A stretch of 64,000 nt of DNA from Trichoplax sp. H2 (lineage: Eukaryota). The notes beneath the pieces are model-generated. The model was not told the DNA's origin. It ran no database searches and saw only the letters and a list, made by a program, of their open reading frames with translations. Of the stretch, positions 17,823 to 50,594 are shown one piece after another (positions within the stretch are counted from its first letter, which is position 1; each line of letters begins with the position of its first letter). The position numbers and the translations under genes are program-made. Location: contig NOWV01000139.1 in NCBI GenBank assembly GCA_003344405.1, forward strand, positions 124,001 through 188,000. The letters run 5' to 3'.

Positions 17823-20800
17823 TTACCTCAGTTCCTTTTTCATCCTAGAGTAAAATATATTGCATACAACGATTAGTGATCCAAGACCCAAGAACATTTG
17901 TCTCTTAAACATGTTTATCATGTTTACGCAAAAAATCACGAGCCTTGTAAGTTACCTATCATTGGCAATGGACCTTAGTACTGAAGTTCCGGATACGAAC
18001 GTAATTCCACCAATAACGGCAAGATATTTCAGAGTAGTAAACATATTCTACAATCAAAGAAGTTGCGTTAATATTTACAAATTGAAAATATTCGATACTA
18101 ATTAATGGTATCTTACCAAATTGGTCCAGTAACAGTAATACAGCAAAAAGATGGCTATTTAGGAATTAAAACAGTGTTAGTATACGTGTGTATTATATAG
18201 TTATCTGATTGTTGTTAAGTTATTAAACTAACTTACCACCAACTCCTAAGTGAAAGACGATATTTGGCAACGTAAAGGAAAAATTAGATACATTTGCTCC
18301 GAATAGATTCCACTGTAAAAATTAAAAAATAGGCAATTATAAAAATACTCGAATTAAGTAGCTCTTCATATATTACATCTGTTTCTAAGAAAATGTGATC
18401 TAATCTTAGTCAGTAAGTCTTATAAAACAGAAGAAATACTGGTGGATGTAGATTAATGATATTTGCAATTTGATATTAAAGCTTCCAGAGATAATCATTG
18501 CCCGGCAGCCTTTGTATTGATCAAATTGCAGTATGACATTAACTGTTGCGAAACATGACTGTCTTTNNNNNNNNNNNNNNNNNNNNGCAAAAAATCACGA
18601 GCCTTGTAAGTTACCTATCATTGGCAATGGACCTTAGTACTGAAGTTCCGGATACGAACGTAATTCCACCAATAACGGCAAGATATTTCAGAGTAGTAAA
18701 CATATTCTACAATCAAAGAAGTTGCGTTAATATTTACAAATTGAAAATATTCGATACTAATTAATGGTATCTTACCAAATTGGTCCAGTAACAGTAATAC
18801 AGCAAAAAGATGGCTATTTAGGAATTAAAACAGTGTTAGTATACGTGTGTATTATATAGTTATCTGATTGTTGTTAAGTTATTAAACTAACTTACCACCA
18901 ACTCCTAAGTGAAAGACGATATTTGGCAACGTAAAGGAAAAATTAGATACATTTGCTCCGAATAGATTCCACTGTAAAAATTAAAAAATAGGCAATTATA
19001 AAAATACTCGAATTAAGTAGCTCTTCATATATTACATCTGTTTCTAAGAAAATGTGATCTAATCTTAGTCAGTAAGTCTTATAAAACAGAAGAAATACTG
19101 GTGGATGTAGATTAATGATATTTGCAATTTGATATTAAAGCTTCCAGAGATAATCATTGCCCGGCAGCCTTTGTATTGATCAAATTGCAGTATGACATTA
19201 ACTGTTGCGAAACATGACTGTCTTTCAACTGTTAATGATCACACTTTATACAACAATATTTTCACGTTGATACTAAGTTTCCATCGAAAGGTAGCAAGAA
19301 CGATAACTATAAATTCGAAATACTGCAACAAGCAGCACTTACCATTACAAACATAATCACCAAAGGTGATAAAACTAGTAGGGTGAAAGCCTTAGATACG
19401 AGCTCTGGAGGGCGTTTTTCGGGAACACGGAACACATGCTAAAATCCCCCAAAATTTTTTAGATCAGTGAAAACTGGATACATCGCCTACTCTTATTAAG
19501 TGCATTAATTCAAAAACCTGTATCTCTGGTTTAGAGCTTGGAGGAATTTTTGTCGCAGGAGCCGCAGCACCAGTCGTAGTAAACTTTAGACTAAGACTAC
19601 CCTGGGTGATTCATGTAAAAAACAACATTAAAACTATAATCTCTCTAAAGAATACTGTCCTTTGTAATATACACGATAATAATAATATTGTTGATTATTA
19701 CCACTTTCCAATAAATCTGGTTGGAAAAAGTAGGATCGCCGATAATTACGTCCATAGAGTAGTTACCACTTTGTGAGTAGAAGGTTTTACGGAGTTCGGT
19801 AATGTCCTGATTTTAAGTATTAAAACTGACATTACGATTCNNNNNNNNNNNNNNNNNNNNGCAAAAAATCACGAGCCTTGTAAGTTACCTATCATTGGCA
19901 ATGGACCTTAGTACTGAAGTTCCGGATACGAACGTAATTCCACCAATAACGGCAAGATATTTCAGAGTAGTAAACATATTCTACAATCAAAGAAGTTGCG
20001 TTAATATTTACAAATTGAAAATATTCGATACTAATTAATGGTATCTTACCAAATTGGTCCAGTAACAGTAATACAGCAAAAAGATGGCTATTTAGGAATT
20101 AAAACAGTGTTAGTATACGTGTGTATTATATAGTTATCTGATTGTTGTTAAGTTATTAAACTAACTTACCACCAACTCCTAAGTGAAAGACGATATTTGG
20201 CAACGTAAAGGAAAAATTAGATACATTTGCTCCAAATAGATTCCACTGTAAAAATTAAAAAATAGGCCATTATAAAAATACTCGAATTAAGTAGGTCTTC
20301 ATATATTACATCTGTTTCTAAGAAAATGTGATCTAATCTTAGTCAGTAAGTCTTATAAAACAGAAGAAATACTGGTGGATGTAGATTAATGATATTTGCA
20401 ATTTGATATTAAAGCTTCCAGAGATAATCATTGCCCGGCAGCCTTTGTATTGATCAAATTGCAGTATGACATTAACTGTTGCGAAACATGACTGTCTTTT
20501 AACTGTTAATGATCACACTTTATACAACAATATTTTCACGTTGATACTAAGTTTCCATCGAAAGGTAGCAAGAACGATAACTATAAAGCACTTACCATTA
20601 CAAACATAATCACCAAAGGTGATAAAACTAGTAGGGTGAAAGCCTTAGATACGAGCTCTGGAGGGCGTTTTTCTGGAACACGGAACACATGCTAAAATCC
20701 CCCAAAATTTTTAGATCAGTGAAAACTGGATACATCGCCTACTCTTATTAAGTGCATTAATTCAAAAACCTGTATCTCTGGTTTAGAGCTTGGAGGAATT

Positions 20801-23800
20801 TTTGTCGCAGGAGCCGCAGCACCAGTCGTAGTAAACTTTAGACTAAGACTACCCTGGGTGATTCATGTAAAAAACAACATTAAAACTATAATCTCTCTAA
20901 AGAATAAAGAATACTGTCCTTTGTAATATACACGATAATAATAATATTGTTGATTATTACCACTTTCCAATAAATCTGGTTGGAAAAAGTAGGATCGCCG
21001 ATAATTACGTCCATAGAGTAGTTACCACTTTGTGAGTAGAAGGTTTTACGGAGTTCGGTAATGTCCTGATTTTAAGTATTAAAACTGACATTACGATTCT
21101 GATAAATAAGATTTACTACTATGCAATAGCATACATACCAATTCTAGCGATAGCAATTGTTCATTTCGGTTAGTGAATAAGAAAGAACGATCTACATTAC
21201 ATTTGTCACATGCCAATCTTAAGAAAGCCTGTGTTTATCAAGAATAATTTCATTATTTCCTTTAATTTTATAATTATCATTTTGGGAATTATGGATACAA
21301 TATAAACAATAAAATGATAATATTACTATTGCTAACCTGTTGAGGTACAATTTCCACATTTTTTTCAACATCTTTAACAATAAATTCAATTGCTACATTC
21401 GAATGCTCATCTGCTTGAATATTCGAAGCTAGTCCTTTTGGAAAAGTCGCCCTATAATACAAATTCGACGTGGCAAAAAGATACATGAAATTATTGATAT
21501 AAATTTACTTCAAATATAGAAGTAGTCAAAATTATTACAAGAATGATATAATGTACAAGGGACTATTCTTTCTCGATTACAGTAATACCTGACTGTACCT
21601 AAATTTCAGGTACACACGTACCTTGCTTCTTTCTGTACTGAAGCTTGGTCTATGTCGCTAGTTTTTACTTTGAAGGATTCAACAGCAACATTGACAACCT
21701 TTTTAACTTTAAAGCTAGAGTCTTGTAATCCAATTAATCGTTTATCTTCCACAACAGGTGCAACATTAAAATGAACAGTATAAAATCCACGTTCAGGCTT
21801 CATTTTATTAAAATCAAACTGGTATTCACCAGCTGATTTTTCTACAAGATCTACATCACTTGCGATGGTGTTTCCTTCAGTGGACACAATCGAGGTAGCT
21901 TTGACGTCCATTTTTGGTAAAGGTTTCCCTAAGATATTGCATGCTTTCACCTATATTTCAAAACCATTGGGTTTAGCAAATTAATTGAATAAAATTAGGA
22001 TGTATAGTGATAATTACCAATAAACATAACTATTCAGGCTAAGTTAACTTACGACAATATTTCCATCGTTTTTCCGGATTAGGGCTTGACTAGTCAGGAC
22101 AACGCTTCCGGGAATTTGAAACTATTTATTAACATTTTTAAGTTAGATCACATGTTGACGTCACATTATGCCTCCTTTGATAATTCGAATAGTTATTCAG
22201 TATTAAGTGTGCATTTACAAAAATGAAAATCTACAAAGGAAGTTAACTACCTTGTTTTCAGTAAAAGCCTGAAGCCCAAGAGCAACATAGTATGCGTTTC
22301 TAACGGATCCAACATGCCTCTTGCTAACAATGTAATTGGCAAGCTTAATTGCTTGATCATTGTCAATAGCTGGAGTAAGACCTCTTGCATAGCATAGACG
22401 GTACACTCCCGTAACAAATAAAATCGTATCTCGAATCCCGCCATCAAACTGCAAATACTTATCACCAATTTCATCGGCTTGATTTAGTACTTCTCCTATG
22501 GCATTAGGGATTGTACCAATATCGGCATCTTTTGGTAAGAAAGCTGCGGCATGAAAGGCGAAGCTGTGACTGTCGTTAATATACAAAAAATGACAGTAAA
22601 ACAACAATACAGGTATCTCAATACAGAAAAAGTTGATCATAGTTATGAAATTAATATGTAGTTGTAAATGTTTATTGCATGGTTTATCTCCCTGATTACT
22701 GTCACATAGTGACTACAGGAAACGCAAGGAATATGCAATTGTCGACAGCCTGACGTACTATGATTTCTCGTAGTACGCTAGCACGGCTTGATATCCAATG
22801 CATTGGCTGTGGACTATACTTCATAAAGTTTGTGCGCAAAGGCACTAAGCTCCGTAAGCCAAATGGGCAGCGCCAACAGAGGCCAGTCCGTTGGATGCCC
22901 TCATTGGAAGACTGGTGAAGCAGAAGCTTCAGATGTATTTAAATTAGTTACGATATAAATTTCTAACCTTGCAGTGCTATCATCTTTTTCTAGTGCAGAT
23001 TTCAAGGATTTAACCACCATAGAGGCATCAACTACAAGACAATACAATATCAACATTGTAATTTCATTATCACTGTAACGTTCGTATGCAGACTGCAATC
23101 ACTGAAATTAGGTGTAACATACATAGTAATCAATAGAAAAATTGCTAAATTTATTTCAGTATACCTTTAAGATTGAACTTTGTTAGAGCACCGACAGCTT
23201 GATAAATCAAGAATGTAGTGCGGCCATCAAGTATAACATCATTTAGTACTTTTTGAGCATCTTTTGGGGGTGTCAACTAAAATTTGACATAAAAAGCATT
23301 TAGGTTAGCAAAACATAATCCACAGTAAGCAATGCAAACGTTTTATAATAGTTCTACCGTAGACCTATGATCTGTTAATCTGTTTTTGACTGCACCTTAA
23401 TTCAAAGTACGCGGCGGCATTAAACAGATTACAACGTTCATAATTTTCTCGATAGAAAAACTAGACACTTACGTTGCATTTTAAACTGTCTCCAATAAAC
23501 GCACCAAAATATAAGTTAACGAGATTCGAAGTCATCGATTTCTTGATAAATGCACAAACATCCTAGTAGAAGTTTTATCATCGTCAAGTGAGATAAATAC
23601 TAATACGCTTCGTAAACAGAGTTAAACTAGATTGTATCAAGCTTGGTTAAAGAGTGCTATCTTCTTCTACATACGTATTTAGTCATTAATTTATATCATA
23701 CCTGGTTTTCAGGCACTTTTTCATTGAGTGCTTCAAGACCAACAACAGAATAGTATGCAGTTACTAAATCTTTGTAAGGTTGAGCTGCCTTCAGTTTTTG

Positions 23801-39190: not shown

Positions 39191-40416
39191 GATCACACTT
39201 GGGAGTTTTTCTGACCACTGACGAGCAACCCTTACGCTGATGGCAGTAGTTACCACCACACGACAGCACAGTACTGTACAGTAGAGTGCGATAGTAGTGT
39301 ATCAAGCACTACCGTGAAGAAAGTGACCGAACTTTTTCTGCGCGTTTGTCTTGCTCAAAGGTAGTACAGAAACTGAAAACAGAGCTGCTGATTGCATACA
39401 GTACAGTAAAAGTCTGGCCAATGCTGTACTATACACTAGTGTACAGTACAGTAGAATGTAACGGACGCTGCATTAGTAACTACTGTACAGTACTGTACAG
39501 TACTTTGCGCAGCATCATTACCATACTGTACAGTGTAGACTGTAATACTGTACAGTACTGTACAGTACTGTACAGTACTGTTAAGTCGTGGGAAGACAAT
39601 GGTACGCATGTACTACTGTACAGTACTGTACTGTAAGTCGTGGGAAGACTACTGTACTGTACTTTGTCTGATACTGTATTGGTATGTACAGTACAGTACA
39701 GTACAGTACAGTACAGTACAGTACAGCACTGTACAGTGTACTGTAGAATGTGTCTCGTTTCCATTCTACAGTACTGTACTGTACTGTACTGTGTGTACCG
39801 TACAGTGTACGTGCGTGCACCTGCAAGGTGAACCAACCTTATTCACCGTAATCATCTGTCAGGGCATACGCATGCGTGGTCGGCAGCCGCAGTAGGAAGA
39901 TTGACGTAACTCGGAAAAAGTCTTTAGACAGTAGTACCTAACTTTTATTGCGTTGGTGCAACGTCTTACTCTTTGAATAATCGCATGAAATTGGAGATAC
40001 AGACTCCTAGAATACAGTAGTGTATCATTCTTTAAGCTAATTACGCTGAGTATCTGAGTAATCGGGGTTATTACCGTATTGCTGGGCCTACTGTACACTG
40101 TACAGTACTGTAGTCTGTAATCTATAGTACTGAGTACAGTACAGTACTGCGTTGAGAGCGACCAGACTACAGTACTATGCACCGTACAGCACAGTCGTAG
40201 TACTGTATGCAGACTGTACTGTACAGTGTACCTGCAAGGTGAACGTAATCCAACGTAATCATCCAACGTAATCATTTGTCAACATGCAGTAAGTAGTTCC
40301 GCTACTGCAGCAGTAGAGGGACGTAGGCAAGCAAAACTTGCAGTGCAGAACATTTCCTTTCTTCCTTAATCTTTCACTTGAAAATATTATTATTCATCGG
40401 TTGTTGAGATAGCCAA
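39191..40416. promoter_or_regulatory. Bidirectional SF3B6/HMGCL promoter region with CAGTA/TACTG arrays (~39265-40230)
   Basis: Divergent ATGs at 39190 (-) and 40417 (+), pentamer arrays, and an NRF1-like palindrome acgcatgcgt at ~39868. Confidence 0.8.
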
Positions 40417-49487: not shown

Positions 49488-50594
49488 GTTTTACAATTAA
49501 AGTATTATTATGATCAAGCCAGGAGGAAGAGGACAGTACTGCTTTTATACTGTACAGTACAGTTTACAGTGTACAGTACAGATCAGTACAGTACTGTACT
49601 GTAACAGAATACAGTACAGTACTGTACTGGTTTTATACTGTAGTTTATAGTGTACTGTACTGTACTGTACTGTACTGTACTGTACAGTGTACAGTACTGA
49701 TTTTATACTGTATTGTAGTCTACAGTGTACAGTACAGTACAGTACTGTACAGTACTGTACTGTAAGTTAACAAAATACTGTACTGTACAGTGTACAGTAC
49801 GTAATGCACTTAAGATACTGTACAGTACAGTACAGTACAGTAAAAGTACAGTATCTCATAATGGTGTACTGTACTGTACTGTACAGTACTATACAGTACA
49901 TTGAGTACAATCGTGTGTAAAAACTTTGAGTACACTGTACTGTACTGTACTGTACTGTATGTACTGTACAACTATAAATTCCAAATTCTCGGTAGCACAG
50001 TACAGTAAGTACTGTACCATTACTGTGACTCTGTGAGTGTGCAGTAAAGTAAGAAAAAAGGCTGACGCAATCAGACCATGTGTCGCAGTCATATCGAGCA
50101 CGCCCAGACACACTGTACATTGTACAATACCGTACTGTACTGTACAGTATAGTGTACAGTACATACAGTACTGTACAGTACAGTACTGTATTAATGAAAA
50201 CTACAGTACTCTAAATTGCTAAAACCGGAAATCACAGTACTGTACTGTACAGTACATCATCTTGGATACTGTACTGCATGCTAGCGTACTGTACACTGTA
50301 CAGTGTACAGTGCTCGTGAACCACGACAACATTGACCAAGCCGCGAAAGAAGAGCGGGTACCACATTTGTATTTTCCTATGTGCAATGCATTTCCCGTGC
50401 TTATGCTTCGTCGGCTTGTTGAAGATTTTCACAAATAAGCAACAGTGAATTTAAAGAGTAACGCCTCGCCTTATCATTTCAATCATTCAGGATATCTTAA
50501 TCTCCGAGTGGCGTTCAACTACGGCTACTATTTTCTTCGCTCAGTGATTGTGCGATACGATCTTTCGGGAATGTTGATTGTCGCCACCTGAAGC
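49488..50594. promoter_or_regulatory. Bidirectional GLS/PHF20 promoter region with CAGTA/TACTG arrays (~49533-50310)
   Basis: Divergent ATGs at 49487 (-) and 50595 (+), dense pentamer arrays, and an ETS-like accggaaat at ~50224. Confidence 0.78.

What the first reader, a model, noticed from the sequence alone, without database searches (positions are those of the whole stretch)
20324..20463. Intronic H/ACA snoRNA with an identifiable 18S rRNA target
Seen: canonical hairpin-H-hairpin-ACA layout with 15/14-nt spacing. Pocket 2 arms ACTAAG and TCCAC pair around the second U of CUUAGU[U]GGUGGA in 18S. Established: that U is yeast Psi1290 (snR83) and human Psi1347 (ACA4/SNORA4, hosted in EIF4A2). 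Here the host is RPN2. An extra hairpin (GTGTGA.CATTAAC/GTTAATG.TCATAC, ~20464-20518) abuts the 5' end. The pocket 1 target is unassigned.
Basis: partly seen in the sequence, partly recalled or inferred. Interest (0 to 1): 0.7.

Follow-up and report, generated by a model that had tools for sequence, protein, structure and literature searches.

The report
Intronic H/ACA snoRNA in Trichoplax RPN2
An intron of the ribophorin II gene of the placozoan Trichoplax very probably encodes an ordinary box H/ACA guide RNA for a pseudouridine in 18S rRNA that yeast and human also make, a useful but unsurprising addition to a poorly annotated genome.

Summary
On the minus strand, 20463..20324 has a hairpin, an H box (ATATCA), a second hairpin and ACA three bases from the end. 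The spacing is 15 and 14 nt.

It lies in sense in a 350-nt intron (20246-20595). RNA contigs show the splice joint. The host is ribophorin II, 99% identical to Trichoplax adhaerens TRIADDRAFT_64329.

The 3' pocket pairs 6+5 (or 7+5) Watson-Crick with UCUUAGU-[UG]-GUGGA. I located this motif in eukaryotic 18S. The unpaired U is yeast U1290 = human U1347, guided by snR83 and ACA4.

The layout alone is common by chance, about 14-15 per shuffled window. Layout plus this pairing was never reached in 240 shuffles.

Not shown:
- a stable 140-nt RNA;
- conservation in relatives;
- a target for pocket 1;
- similarity to any Rfam H/ACA family.

The three copies in the window are scaffold redundancy around two N gaps. 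Another intron of the same gene holds U17/SNORA73.

Verdict: a new member of a known kind, about 85% likely real.

The parts
20324..20463 (-). Predicted mature box H/ACA snoRNA (140 nt): hairpin 1, H box, hairpin 2, ACA + 3 nt
   Evidence: Sequence. Fold z -3.05, 0 of 200 shuffles as stable. The ends are inferred from the box H/ACA rule, not measured.
20397..20463 (-). 5' hairpin with pocket 1 (arms CAATACA 20452-20446 and AAT 20410-20408); target unassigned
   Evidence: Fold -20.0 kcal/mol, z -3.15, 2 of 200 shuffles as stable. No site of 9 or more pairs in 86 SSU/ITS/5.8S/LSU-start loci. No conserved site in 36 partial LSU loci.
20390..20395 (-). H box ATATCA (fits ANANNA), 15 nt after the upper stem of hairpin 1
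   Evidence: Sequence.
20331..20386 (-). 3' hairpin with pocket 2: 5' arm CATCCAC (20381-20375), 3' arm ACTAAGAT (20343-20336), upper stem CAGTA/TACTG, lower stem ATCTA/TAGAT
   Evidence: Folds (z -2.15, 6 of 200 shuffles as stable). In all 86 rDNA loci the only sites of 9 or more pairs lie at this one 18S position: 6+5 or better without G-U at CTTAGT[TG/TC]GTGGA in 46 loci, weaker variants of the same site in 7 more.
20327..20329 (-). ACA box, 14 nt after the upper stem of hairpin 2, 3 nt before the predicted 3' end
   Evidence: Sequence. The pattern scan gives 0.06 expected per window.
20464..20518 (-). Extra stable hairpin abutting the 5' end, with no box after it; role unknown
   Evidence: -16.6 kcal/mol, z -3.74, 0 of 200 shuffles as stable. 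The haplotype difference at 20500 falls in an internal loop.
20246..20595 (-). Host intron (350 nt, GT..AG) of ribophorin II; the snoRNA starts 132 nt after the 5' splice site and ends 78 nt before the 3' splice site
   Evidence: Joint 20245|20596 in contigs of RNA runs X5, X6 and X9. The flanking exons are translated and are contiguous in P0004.
22666..22907 (-). U17/SNORA73 H/ACA snoRNA in another intron (22572-22969, 398 nt) of the same gene
   Evidence: Rfam RF00045, 86 bits against a gathering score of 74, E 3.5e-19.
18391..18530 (-). Redundant copy of the snoRNA (scaffold overlap, identical)
19050..19189 (-). Redundant copy of the snoRNA on a 1254-nt allelic or overlap contig between two N gaps

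Best explanation
A box H/ACA pseudouridylation guide snoRNA of Trichoplax, made from an intron of the ribophorin II (RPN2) pre-mRNA.

Inferred mechanism, from the established H/ACA pathway:
- The H/ACA proteins (dyskerin/Cbf5, Nop10, Nhp2, then Gar1) assemble on the two hairpins during transcription.
- After splicing and debranching, exonucleases trim the intron to the particle, leaving an RNA of about 140 nt.
- In the nucleolus the 3' pocket pairs with 18S pre-rRNA at UCUUAGU-[UG]-GUGGA.
- This presents the first unpaired U, equivalent to yeast U1290 and human U1347, to dyskerin 14 nt upstream of ACA.

Shown here: the anatomy, the intron, the sense orientation, the host gene, and the pairing and its specificity.

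Inferred: accumulation of the RNA, its exact ends, and the modification itself. The 5' pocket has no assigned target.
For: (1) The box and hairpin layout is complete with correct spacings. Each hairpin is more stable than shuffles.

(2) It lies in sense in a verified intron. That intron (350 nt) and the U17 intron (398 nt) are the two longest of the ten mapped in this gene. The others are 73-170 nt.

(3) The same gene hosts a bona fide H/ACA RNA, U17.

(4) Pocket 2 gives 11-12 Watson-Crick pairs with no G-U. Every site of 9 or more pairs in 86 eukaryotic rDNA loci lies at this one 18S position, with no site elsewhere.

(5) That U is a pseudouridine guided by snR83 in yeast and ACA4 in human. 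In chicken the guide is likewise 7+5 nt in the 3' hairpin.

(6) Chance controls:
- 7 of 20000 random 8+6 pockets reach 11 or more Watson-Crick pairs with any U of one 18S.
- 0 of 240 shuffled windows had a two-hairpin layout with more than 9 pairs to a conserved U context, against 12 here.

(7) All six polymorphisms seen in the intron lie outside the 140 nt: 20266, 20268, 20295, 20500, 20541 and an indel at 20586/7. Under uniform placement the probability is (210/350)^6 = 0.047, which is weak support.
Against: - No Rfam H/ACA family, SNORA4 and snR83 included, matches even at E <= 10 in a 156-nt search.
- Pocket 1 has no target in the rRNA sampled.
- This AT-rich DNA gives 14-15 H/ACA-like layouts per window by chance.
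- With a very lax single-hairpin rule, 12 pairs to a conserved U context turned up in 1 of 40 shuffles, and 11 or more in 4 of 40.
- No sequence from another placozoan could be compared, so there is no covariation evidence.
- This species' own 18S was not available. The target motif is exact in 38 of 59 diverse eukaryotes, not in all.
Confidence: 0.85

Rival explanations
1. Chance: an AT-rich intron that happens to fold into an H/ACA-like shape and to match 18S. No stable RNA is made.
For: Layouts of this kind arise 14-15 times per shuffled window. A lax single-hairpin scan reaches 11 or more pairs in 4 of 40 shuffles. There is no Rfam hit and no comparative data.
Against: The conjunction of layout and pairing was never approached in 240 shuffles (best 9 against 12). 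The target is a known guided pseudouridine. The element lies in sense in one of the two oversized introns of a gene that already hosts U17. No variant falls inside it.
Confidence: 0.08
2. A real H/ACA RNA whose mature form keeps the abutting 5' hairpin. It would be about 195 nt (20518-20324) with three hairpins, the extra one serving assembly, stability or protein binding.
For: Hairpin 20518-20464 is the most significant fold of the three (z -3.74, 0 of 200 shuffles). It stacks directly on hairpin 1 with no spacer. It is kept in both haplotype versions, whose only difference lies in a loop.
Against: No H or ACA box follows it, so by the known rules no H/ACA protein set would protect it from 5' trimming (established knowledge, not tested). 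A single significant hairpin in an AT-rich intron can be incidental.
Confidence: 0.1
3. An expressed H/ACA RNA whose 18S complementarity is not used: an orphan, or a guide for another RNA through pocket 1.
For: Pocket 1 is intact but unassigned. Many snoRNAs have orphan pockets (general knowledge).
Against: Pocket 2 has the exact geometry of a working guide for a site that is modified in yeast, chicken and human.
Confidence: 0.04

Closest known systems
Vertebrate SNORA4 (ACA4), e.g. chicken GGgACA26
   Same: A two-hairpin intronic H/ACA guide. The guide for the same 18S uridine (human U1347, chicken 18S-1305) sits in the 3' hairpin, 7+5 nt in chicken and 7+5 or 6+5 here (PMC2653536 table rows; PMC9715914 passage).
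   Different: The host gene is EIF4A2 in chicken and RPN2 here. No similarity is detectable with Rfam covariance models. Xenopus SNORA4 carries an extra element for 28S-Psi4323 (PMC6984369 passage), while pocket 1 here has no assigned target.
Yeast snR83 (RUF3)
   Same: Guides 18S Psi1290, the same nucleotide by triangulation against Um1269, Gm1271 and ac4C1280.
   Different: snR83 also guides Psi1415. Here no second SSU site fits pocket 1. No sequence similarity was found.
Trichoplax U17 / SNORA73 (Hertel et al. 2009)
   Same: An H/ACA RNA in an intron of the same RPN2 gene, in the same orientation.
   Different: U17 is a pre-rRNA processing snoRNA recognisable by homology (86 bits). The candidate is a modification guide recognisable only by structure and target.

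Membership tests
Box H/ACA snoRNA (class) | Hairpin, hinge with H box (ANANNA), hairpin, and ACA 3 nt from the 3' end | tested here: met
   Sequence and folds. The 3' end itself is inferred.
Box H/ACA snoRNA (class) | Internal pocket with bipartite complementarity around an unpaired U-N, 14-16 nt upstream of the box | tested here: met
   Pocket 2: 6+5 or 7+5 Watson-Crick pairs, 14 nt from ACA. Pocket 1: correct spacing (15 nt) but no target found.
Box H/ACA snoRNA (class) | Accumulates as a discrete small RNA bound by dyskerin, Nop10, Nhp2 and Gar1 | not testable with these tools
   Only assembled contigs of standard RNA-seq runs were available. They cannot show a 140-nt RNA or its ends.
Box H/ACA snoRNA (class) | For animal guides: lies in an intron, in sense with the host gene | tested here: met
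   Splice joint in 3 of 3 RNA runs. The host protein is contiguous across the intron.
Rfam SNORA4 family | Score at or above the family's gathering threshold, that is, sequence and structure homology | tested here: not met
   No hit at gathering, nor at E <= 10 on 1201 nt or 156 nt.
Rfam SNORA4 family | Guide for 18S U1347 (human numbering) in the 3' hairpin | tested here: met
snR83 | Two guides, for 18S Psi1290 and Psi1415 | tested here: inconclusive
   The Psi1290-equivalent guide is met. No second SSU site of 9 or more pairs fits pocket 1 in 86 loci, but this species' own 18S was not read.
SNORA73 / U17 (the neighbour at 22666-22907) | Rfam gathering score | tested here: met
   86 bits against 74, full-length model match 1-219.

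The most novel reading that the evidence does not exclude
The mature RNA is a three-hairpin H/ACA RNA of about 195 nt. A box-less 5' hairpin (20518-20464) is stacked on the guide domain. This architecture is not described for animal modification guides, and it would occur in one of the earliest-branching animals.
Probability: 0.1. Interest if true: 0.45.

Novelty: new member of a known kind. Interest (0 to 1): 0.3.

Why it matters
The published non-coding RNA annotation of Trichoplax found only U17 as an unambiguous H/ACA snoRNA. Its Table 3 lists no ACA4 counterpart (PMC2655684, sections 16 and 18 read in full). The paper's web supplement was not seen and may list discarded candidates.

This element would be a first well-supported pseudouridylation guide with a conserved target in Placozoa. 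It would show that the guide for 18S Psi1290/1347, with its 3'-hairpin position and 7+5 geometry, is shared by fungi, vertebrates and a placozoan. The host gene differs and the rest of the sequence has diverged beyond detection.

It also shows that searching by target finds guides that homology searches miss. It is not mechanistically new.

Tried and rejected
- RNA evidence for a stable 140-nt RNA. In runs X5 and X9 no contig covers 20338-20525. In X6 one unspliced contig (20217-20625, depth 7.7) covers the whole intron. The U17 intron is covered by contigs of depth 43-96 in all three runs, and another unspliced intron by depth 10-26. These are assembled contigs of random-primed RNA-seq from one study, so a part without cover says nothing either way. 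Run X1 laid nothing.
- Whole genome of the window: not held, so this species' own 18S, 28S and snRNAs were not searched.
- Earlier findings of this scan: nothing by place or by sequence. The words query was malformed.
- Relatives. The exon-sized protein search found a single 71%-identical fragment, P0003, from an assembled public run. Its DNA could not be fetched, so no placozoan comparison was made.
- Pocket 1 target.
  - No site of 9 or more pairs in 86 SSU/ITS/5.8S/LSU-start loci.
  - Whole metagenome records could not be searched.
  - A scan of genome contigs with a large-subunit primer gave 49 loci. I dropped 13 as archaeal or not LSU-like, judged. The other 36 are mostly partial and cover few 3' domains. 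They gave one non-conserved 8-pair site.
- A lax single-hairpin target scan of the whole window against four rDNA loci gave hundreds of chance hits and was uninformative.
- One Rfam call with 12 loci failed internally. It was repeated with 4 loci.
- CAB box (UGAG) in the terminal loops: none seen by eye, so nothing points to a Cajal-body RNA.
- Box C/D reading of the intron: only chance-level Rfam hits.
- Literature on Trichoplax H/ACA guides after 2009: searches listed none.

Full report
**What is there**

On the minus strand, 20463..20324 reads as a textbook box H/ACA RNA.
- Hairpin 1 has an 11-bp lower stem, an internal loop (arms CAATACA and AAT) and an upper stem.
- One base later comes the H box ATATCA.
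- Hairpin 2 has a lower stem ATCTA/TAGAT, arms CATCCAC and ACTAAGAT, and an upper stem CAGTA/TACTG.
- One base later comes ACA, then three bases.

The distance from the upper stem to the box is 15 nt in hairpin 1 and 14 nt in hairpin 2.

The 140-mer folds exactly this way. The MFE is -30.2 kcal/mol, z -3.05, with 0 of 200 shuffles as stable. Folded alone, hairpin 1 gives z -3.15 and hairpin 2 gives z -2.15.

**Three copies are one**

The same 140 nt occur at 18391-18530 and 19050-19189. This is scaffold redundancy.
- The window has two 20-N gaps, at 18567-18586 and 19841-19860.
- 17928-18566 is identical to 18587-19225.
- The 1254-nt piece between the gaps matches 19861-21099 with five substitutions and three indels.

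These are overlapping or allelic contigs that the assembler did not merge, not a tandem gene family.

**Context**

The minus strand carries a ribophorin II gene.
- Pfam finds the Ribophorin_II N-terminal and second domains.
- One exon is 99% identical to TRIADDRAFT_64329 of Trichoplax adhaerens, 634 aa. The window is therefore placozoan.
- RNA contigs of three RNA-seq runs, all from one study, join 20245 to 20596 and skip 350 nt with GT..AG on the minus strand.
- The flanking exons are contiguous in the reference protein.

The element lies in sense. It starts 132 nt after the 5' splice site and ends 78 nt before the 3' splice site.

The other introns mapped in this gene are 73-170 nt. The only other long one, 22572-22969 (398 nt), contains a full-length match to SNORA73/U17 at 86 bits against a gathering score of 74. 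So this gene already hosts one H/ACA RNA, and its two oversized introns are the two with H/ACA features.

**Target**

No genome is held for the window, so I fetched eukaryotic rDNA from metagenomes with the published primer NS5.
- 86 loci were returned. 27 were too short downstream of the primer, which left 59.
- Of those 59, 38 carry the exact 13-mer CTTAGTTGGTGGA 128-135 nt after the primer.
- 12 differ at one base. Seven of these differ only at the unpaired N.
- 9 differ at two or more bases.

Four of the loci were confirmed as SSU_rRNA_eukarya followed by 5.8S and the start of the LSU.

Over all 86 loci, every site with 9 or more pairs to pocket 2 lies at this one 18S position and none lies elsewhere.
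- 46 loci give 6+5 or better Watson-Crick pairs with no G-U.
- 7 further loci give weaker variants of the same site.
- The pairing becomes 7+5 when the arm base next to the lower stem is counted.

The context is GGTGGTGGTGCATGGCCGTTCTTAGTTGGTGGAG. The yeast positions Um1269, Gm1271, ac4C1280 and Psi1290 come from table rows of PMC5699541. Only the second T of GTTGG fits all four. If the first T were 1290, position 1269 would be a G. That second T is exactly the U that the pocket leaves unpaired.

What the papers say:
- Passages of PMC9045821 and the PMC5699541 table show that snR83 guides Psi1290 and Psi1415.
- A passage of PMC9715914 calls ACA4 the human snR83 homolog acting on U1347, which corresponds to yeast U1290.
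- Table rows of PMC2653536 list chicken GGgACA26 as guiding this site with 7+5 nt in its 3' hairpin, from EIF4A2 intron 9.

**Is it more than chance?**

The layout alone is not.
- A scanner asking for two hairpins with stems of 5 bp or more, correct spacings, an H box and ACA finds a mean of 15.0 layouts per dinucleotide-shuffled window in 60 shuffles, and 14.0 in 240 shuffles.
- It finds 50 in the real de-duplicated window, many of them in repeats near 39.4-40.1 kb and 49.5-50.1 kb.
- A still laxer single-hairpin rule reached 12 pairs to one of 31 conserved U contexts in 1 of 40 shuffles, and 11 or more in 4 of 40.

The conjunction is.
- Among two-hairpin layouts in 240 shuffles, the best pairing to those contexts was 9, reached once. 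The candidate has 12.
- Random 8+6 pockets reach 11 or more Watson-Crick pairs with any of the 457 U of one 18S in 7 of 20000 trials.
- The bare motif of arms plus ACA is expected 0.06 times per window. That pattern was written after seeing the candidate, so it is not an independent test.

Six polymorphisms were seen in the intron between the two scaffold versions and one RNA contig. All fall outside the 140 nt. The probability is 0.047 if placement is uniform, which is weak support. A third difference of that RNA contig is counted but not listed, presumably because it lies near the contig's end.

**What is missing**

- No Rfam H/ACA family matches, even at E <= 10 on 156 nt. The RNA cannot be filed in the SNORA4 or snR83 sequence families. 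It works like them.
- Pocket 1 (7+3, correct spacing) found no target in the SSU, ITS, 5.8S and LSU-start loci, nor in 36 mostly partial LSU loci. The 3' domains of the LSU, the snRNAs and this species' own rRNA remain untested.
- No relative's DNA could be obtained. A 71%-identical exon fragment exists but could not be fetched.
- The RNA data are assembled contigs and cannot show a small RNA.

**Comparison and novelty**

Hertel et al. 2009 (PMC2655684; outline, passages, and sections 16 and 18 in full) searched Trichoplax with all human snoRNAs.
- They kept U17, an uncertain U71 and one novel candidate on another scaffold.
- They state that U17 is the only H/ACA snoRNA identifiable unambiguously.
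- No ACA4 counterpart is in their Table 3.
- Their web supplement was not seen and may list discarded candidates.

Searches for later work on Trichoplax H/ACA guides listed nothing.

So this is most likely a previously unlisted but entirely conventional guide RNA, a new member of a known kind. The one odd feature is the stable box-less hairpin stacked on its 5' end. I cannot explain it, and only end mapping can tell whether it is part of the RNA.

**Verdict**

- Observation: confirmed.
- Interpretation: supported.
- Probability of a real snoRNA guiding this site: about 0.85.
- Interest: 0.3.

Noticed in passing
window 22666-22907 (-), in intron 22572-22969: A full-length SNORA73/U17 match (86 bits against a gathering score of 74) lies in another intron of the same ribophorin II gene. 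RNA contigs of depth 43-96 cover it in all three RNA runs. They differ from the window at 22742, 22753 and 22897 inside the RNA.
   Followed up: partly
window 17928-21099: Scaffold redundancy. Two 20-N gaps (18567-18586 and 19841-19860) separate overlapping or allelic contigs, so about 1.9 kb of the RPN2 gene appears two to three times. A gene model built on this scaffold would be corrupted.
   Followed up: yes
window 20464-20518 (-): A stable hairpin (-16.6 kcal/mol, z -3.74) lies directly 5' of the snoRNA, with no H or ACA box of its own. It is unexplained.
   Followed up: partly
window about 39400-40100 and 49500-50150, both strands: These repetitive stretches give clusters of H/ACA-like layouts in the lax scanner. 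They look like low-complexity or tandem repeats, not genes.
   Followed up: no
window 21852 and 22605: RNA contigs of all three runs read A instead of T at 21852, in an RPN2 exon. Two runs lack 14 nt at 22605, in the U17 intron. The runs probably come from a slightly different strain or haplotype than the window.
   Followed up: no
L087-L135 (genome contigs): Many assemblies labelled as bacteria hold small contigs with eukaryote-like large-subunit rRNA. L089, for example, has a complete LSU_rRNA_eukarya plus 5.8S in a contig labelled Saccharibacteria MAG. This looks like contamination.
   Followed up: no
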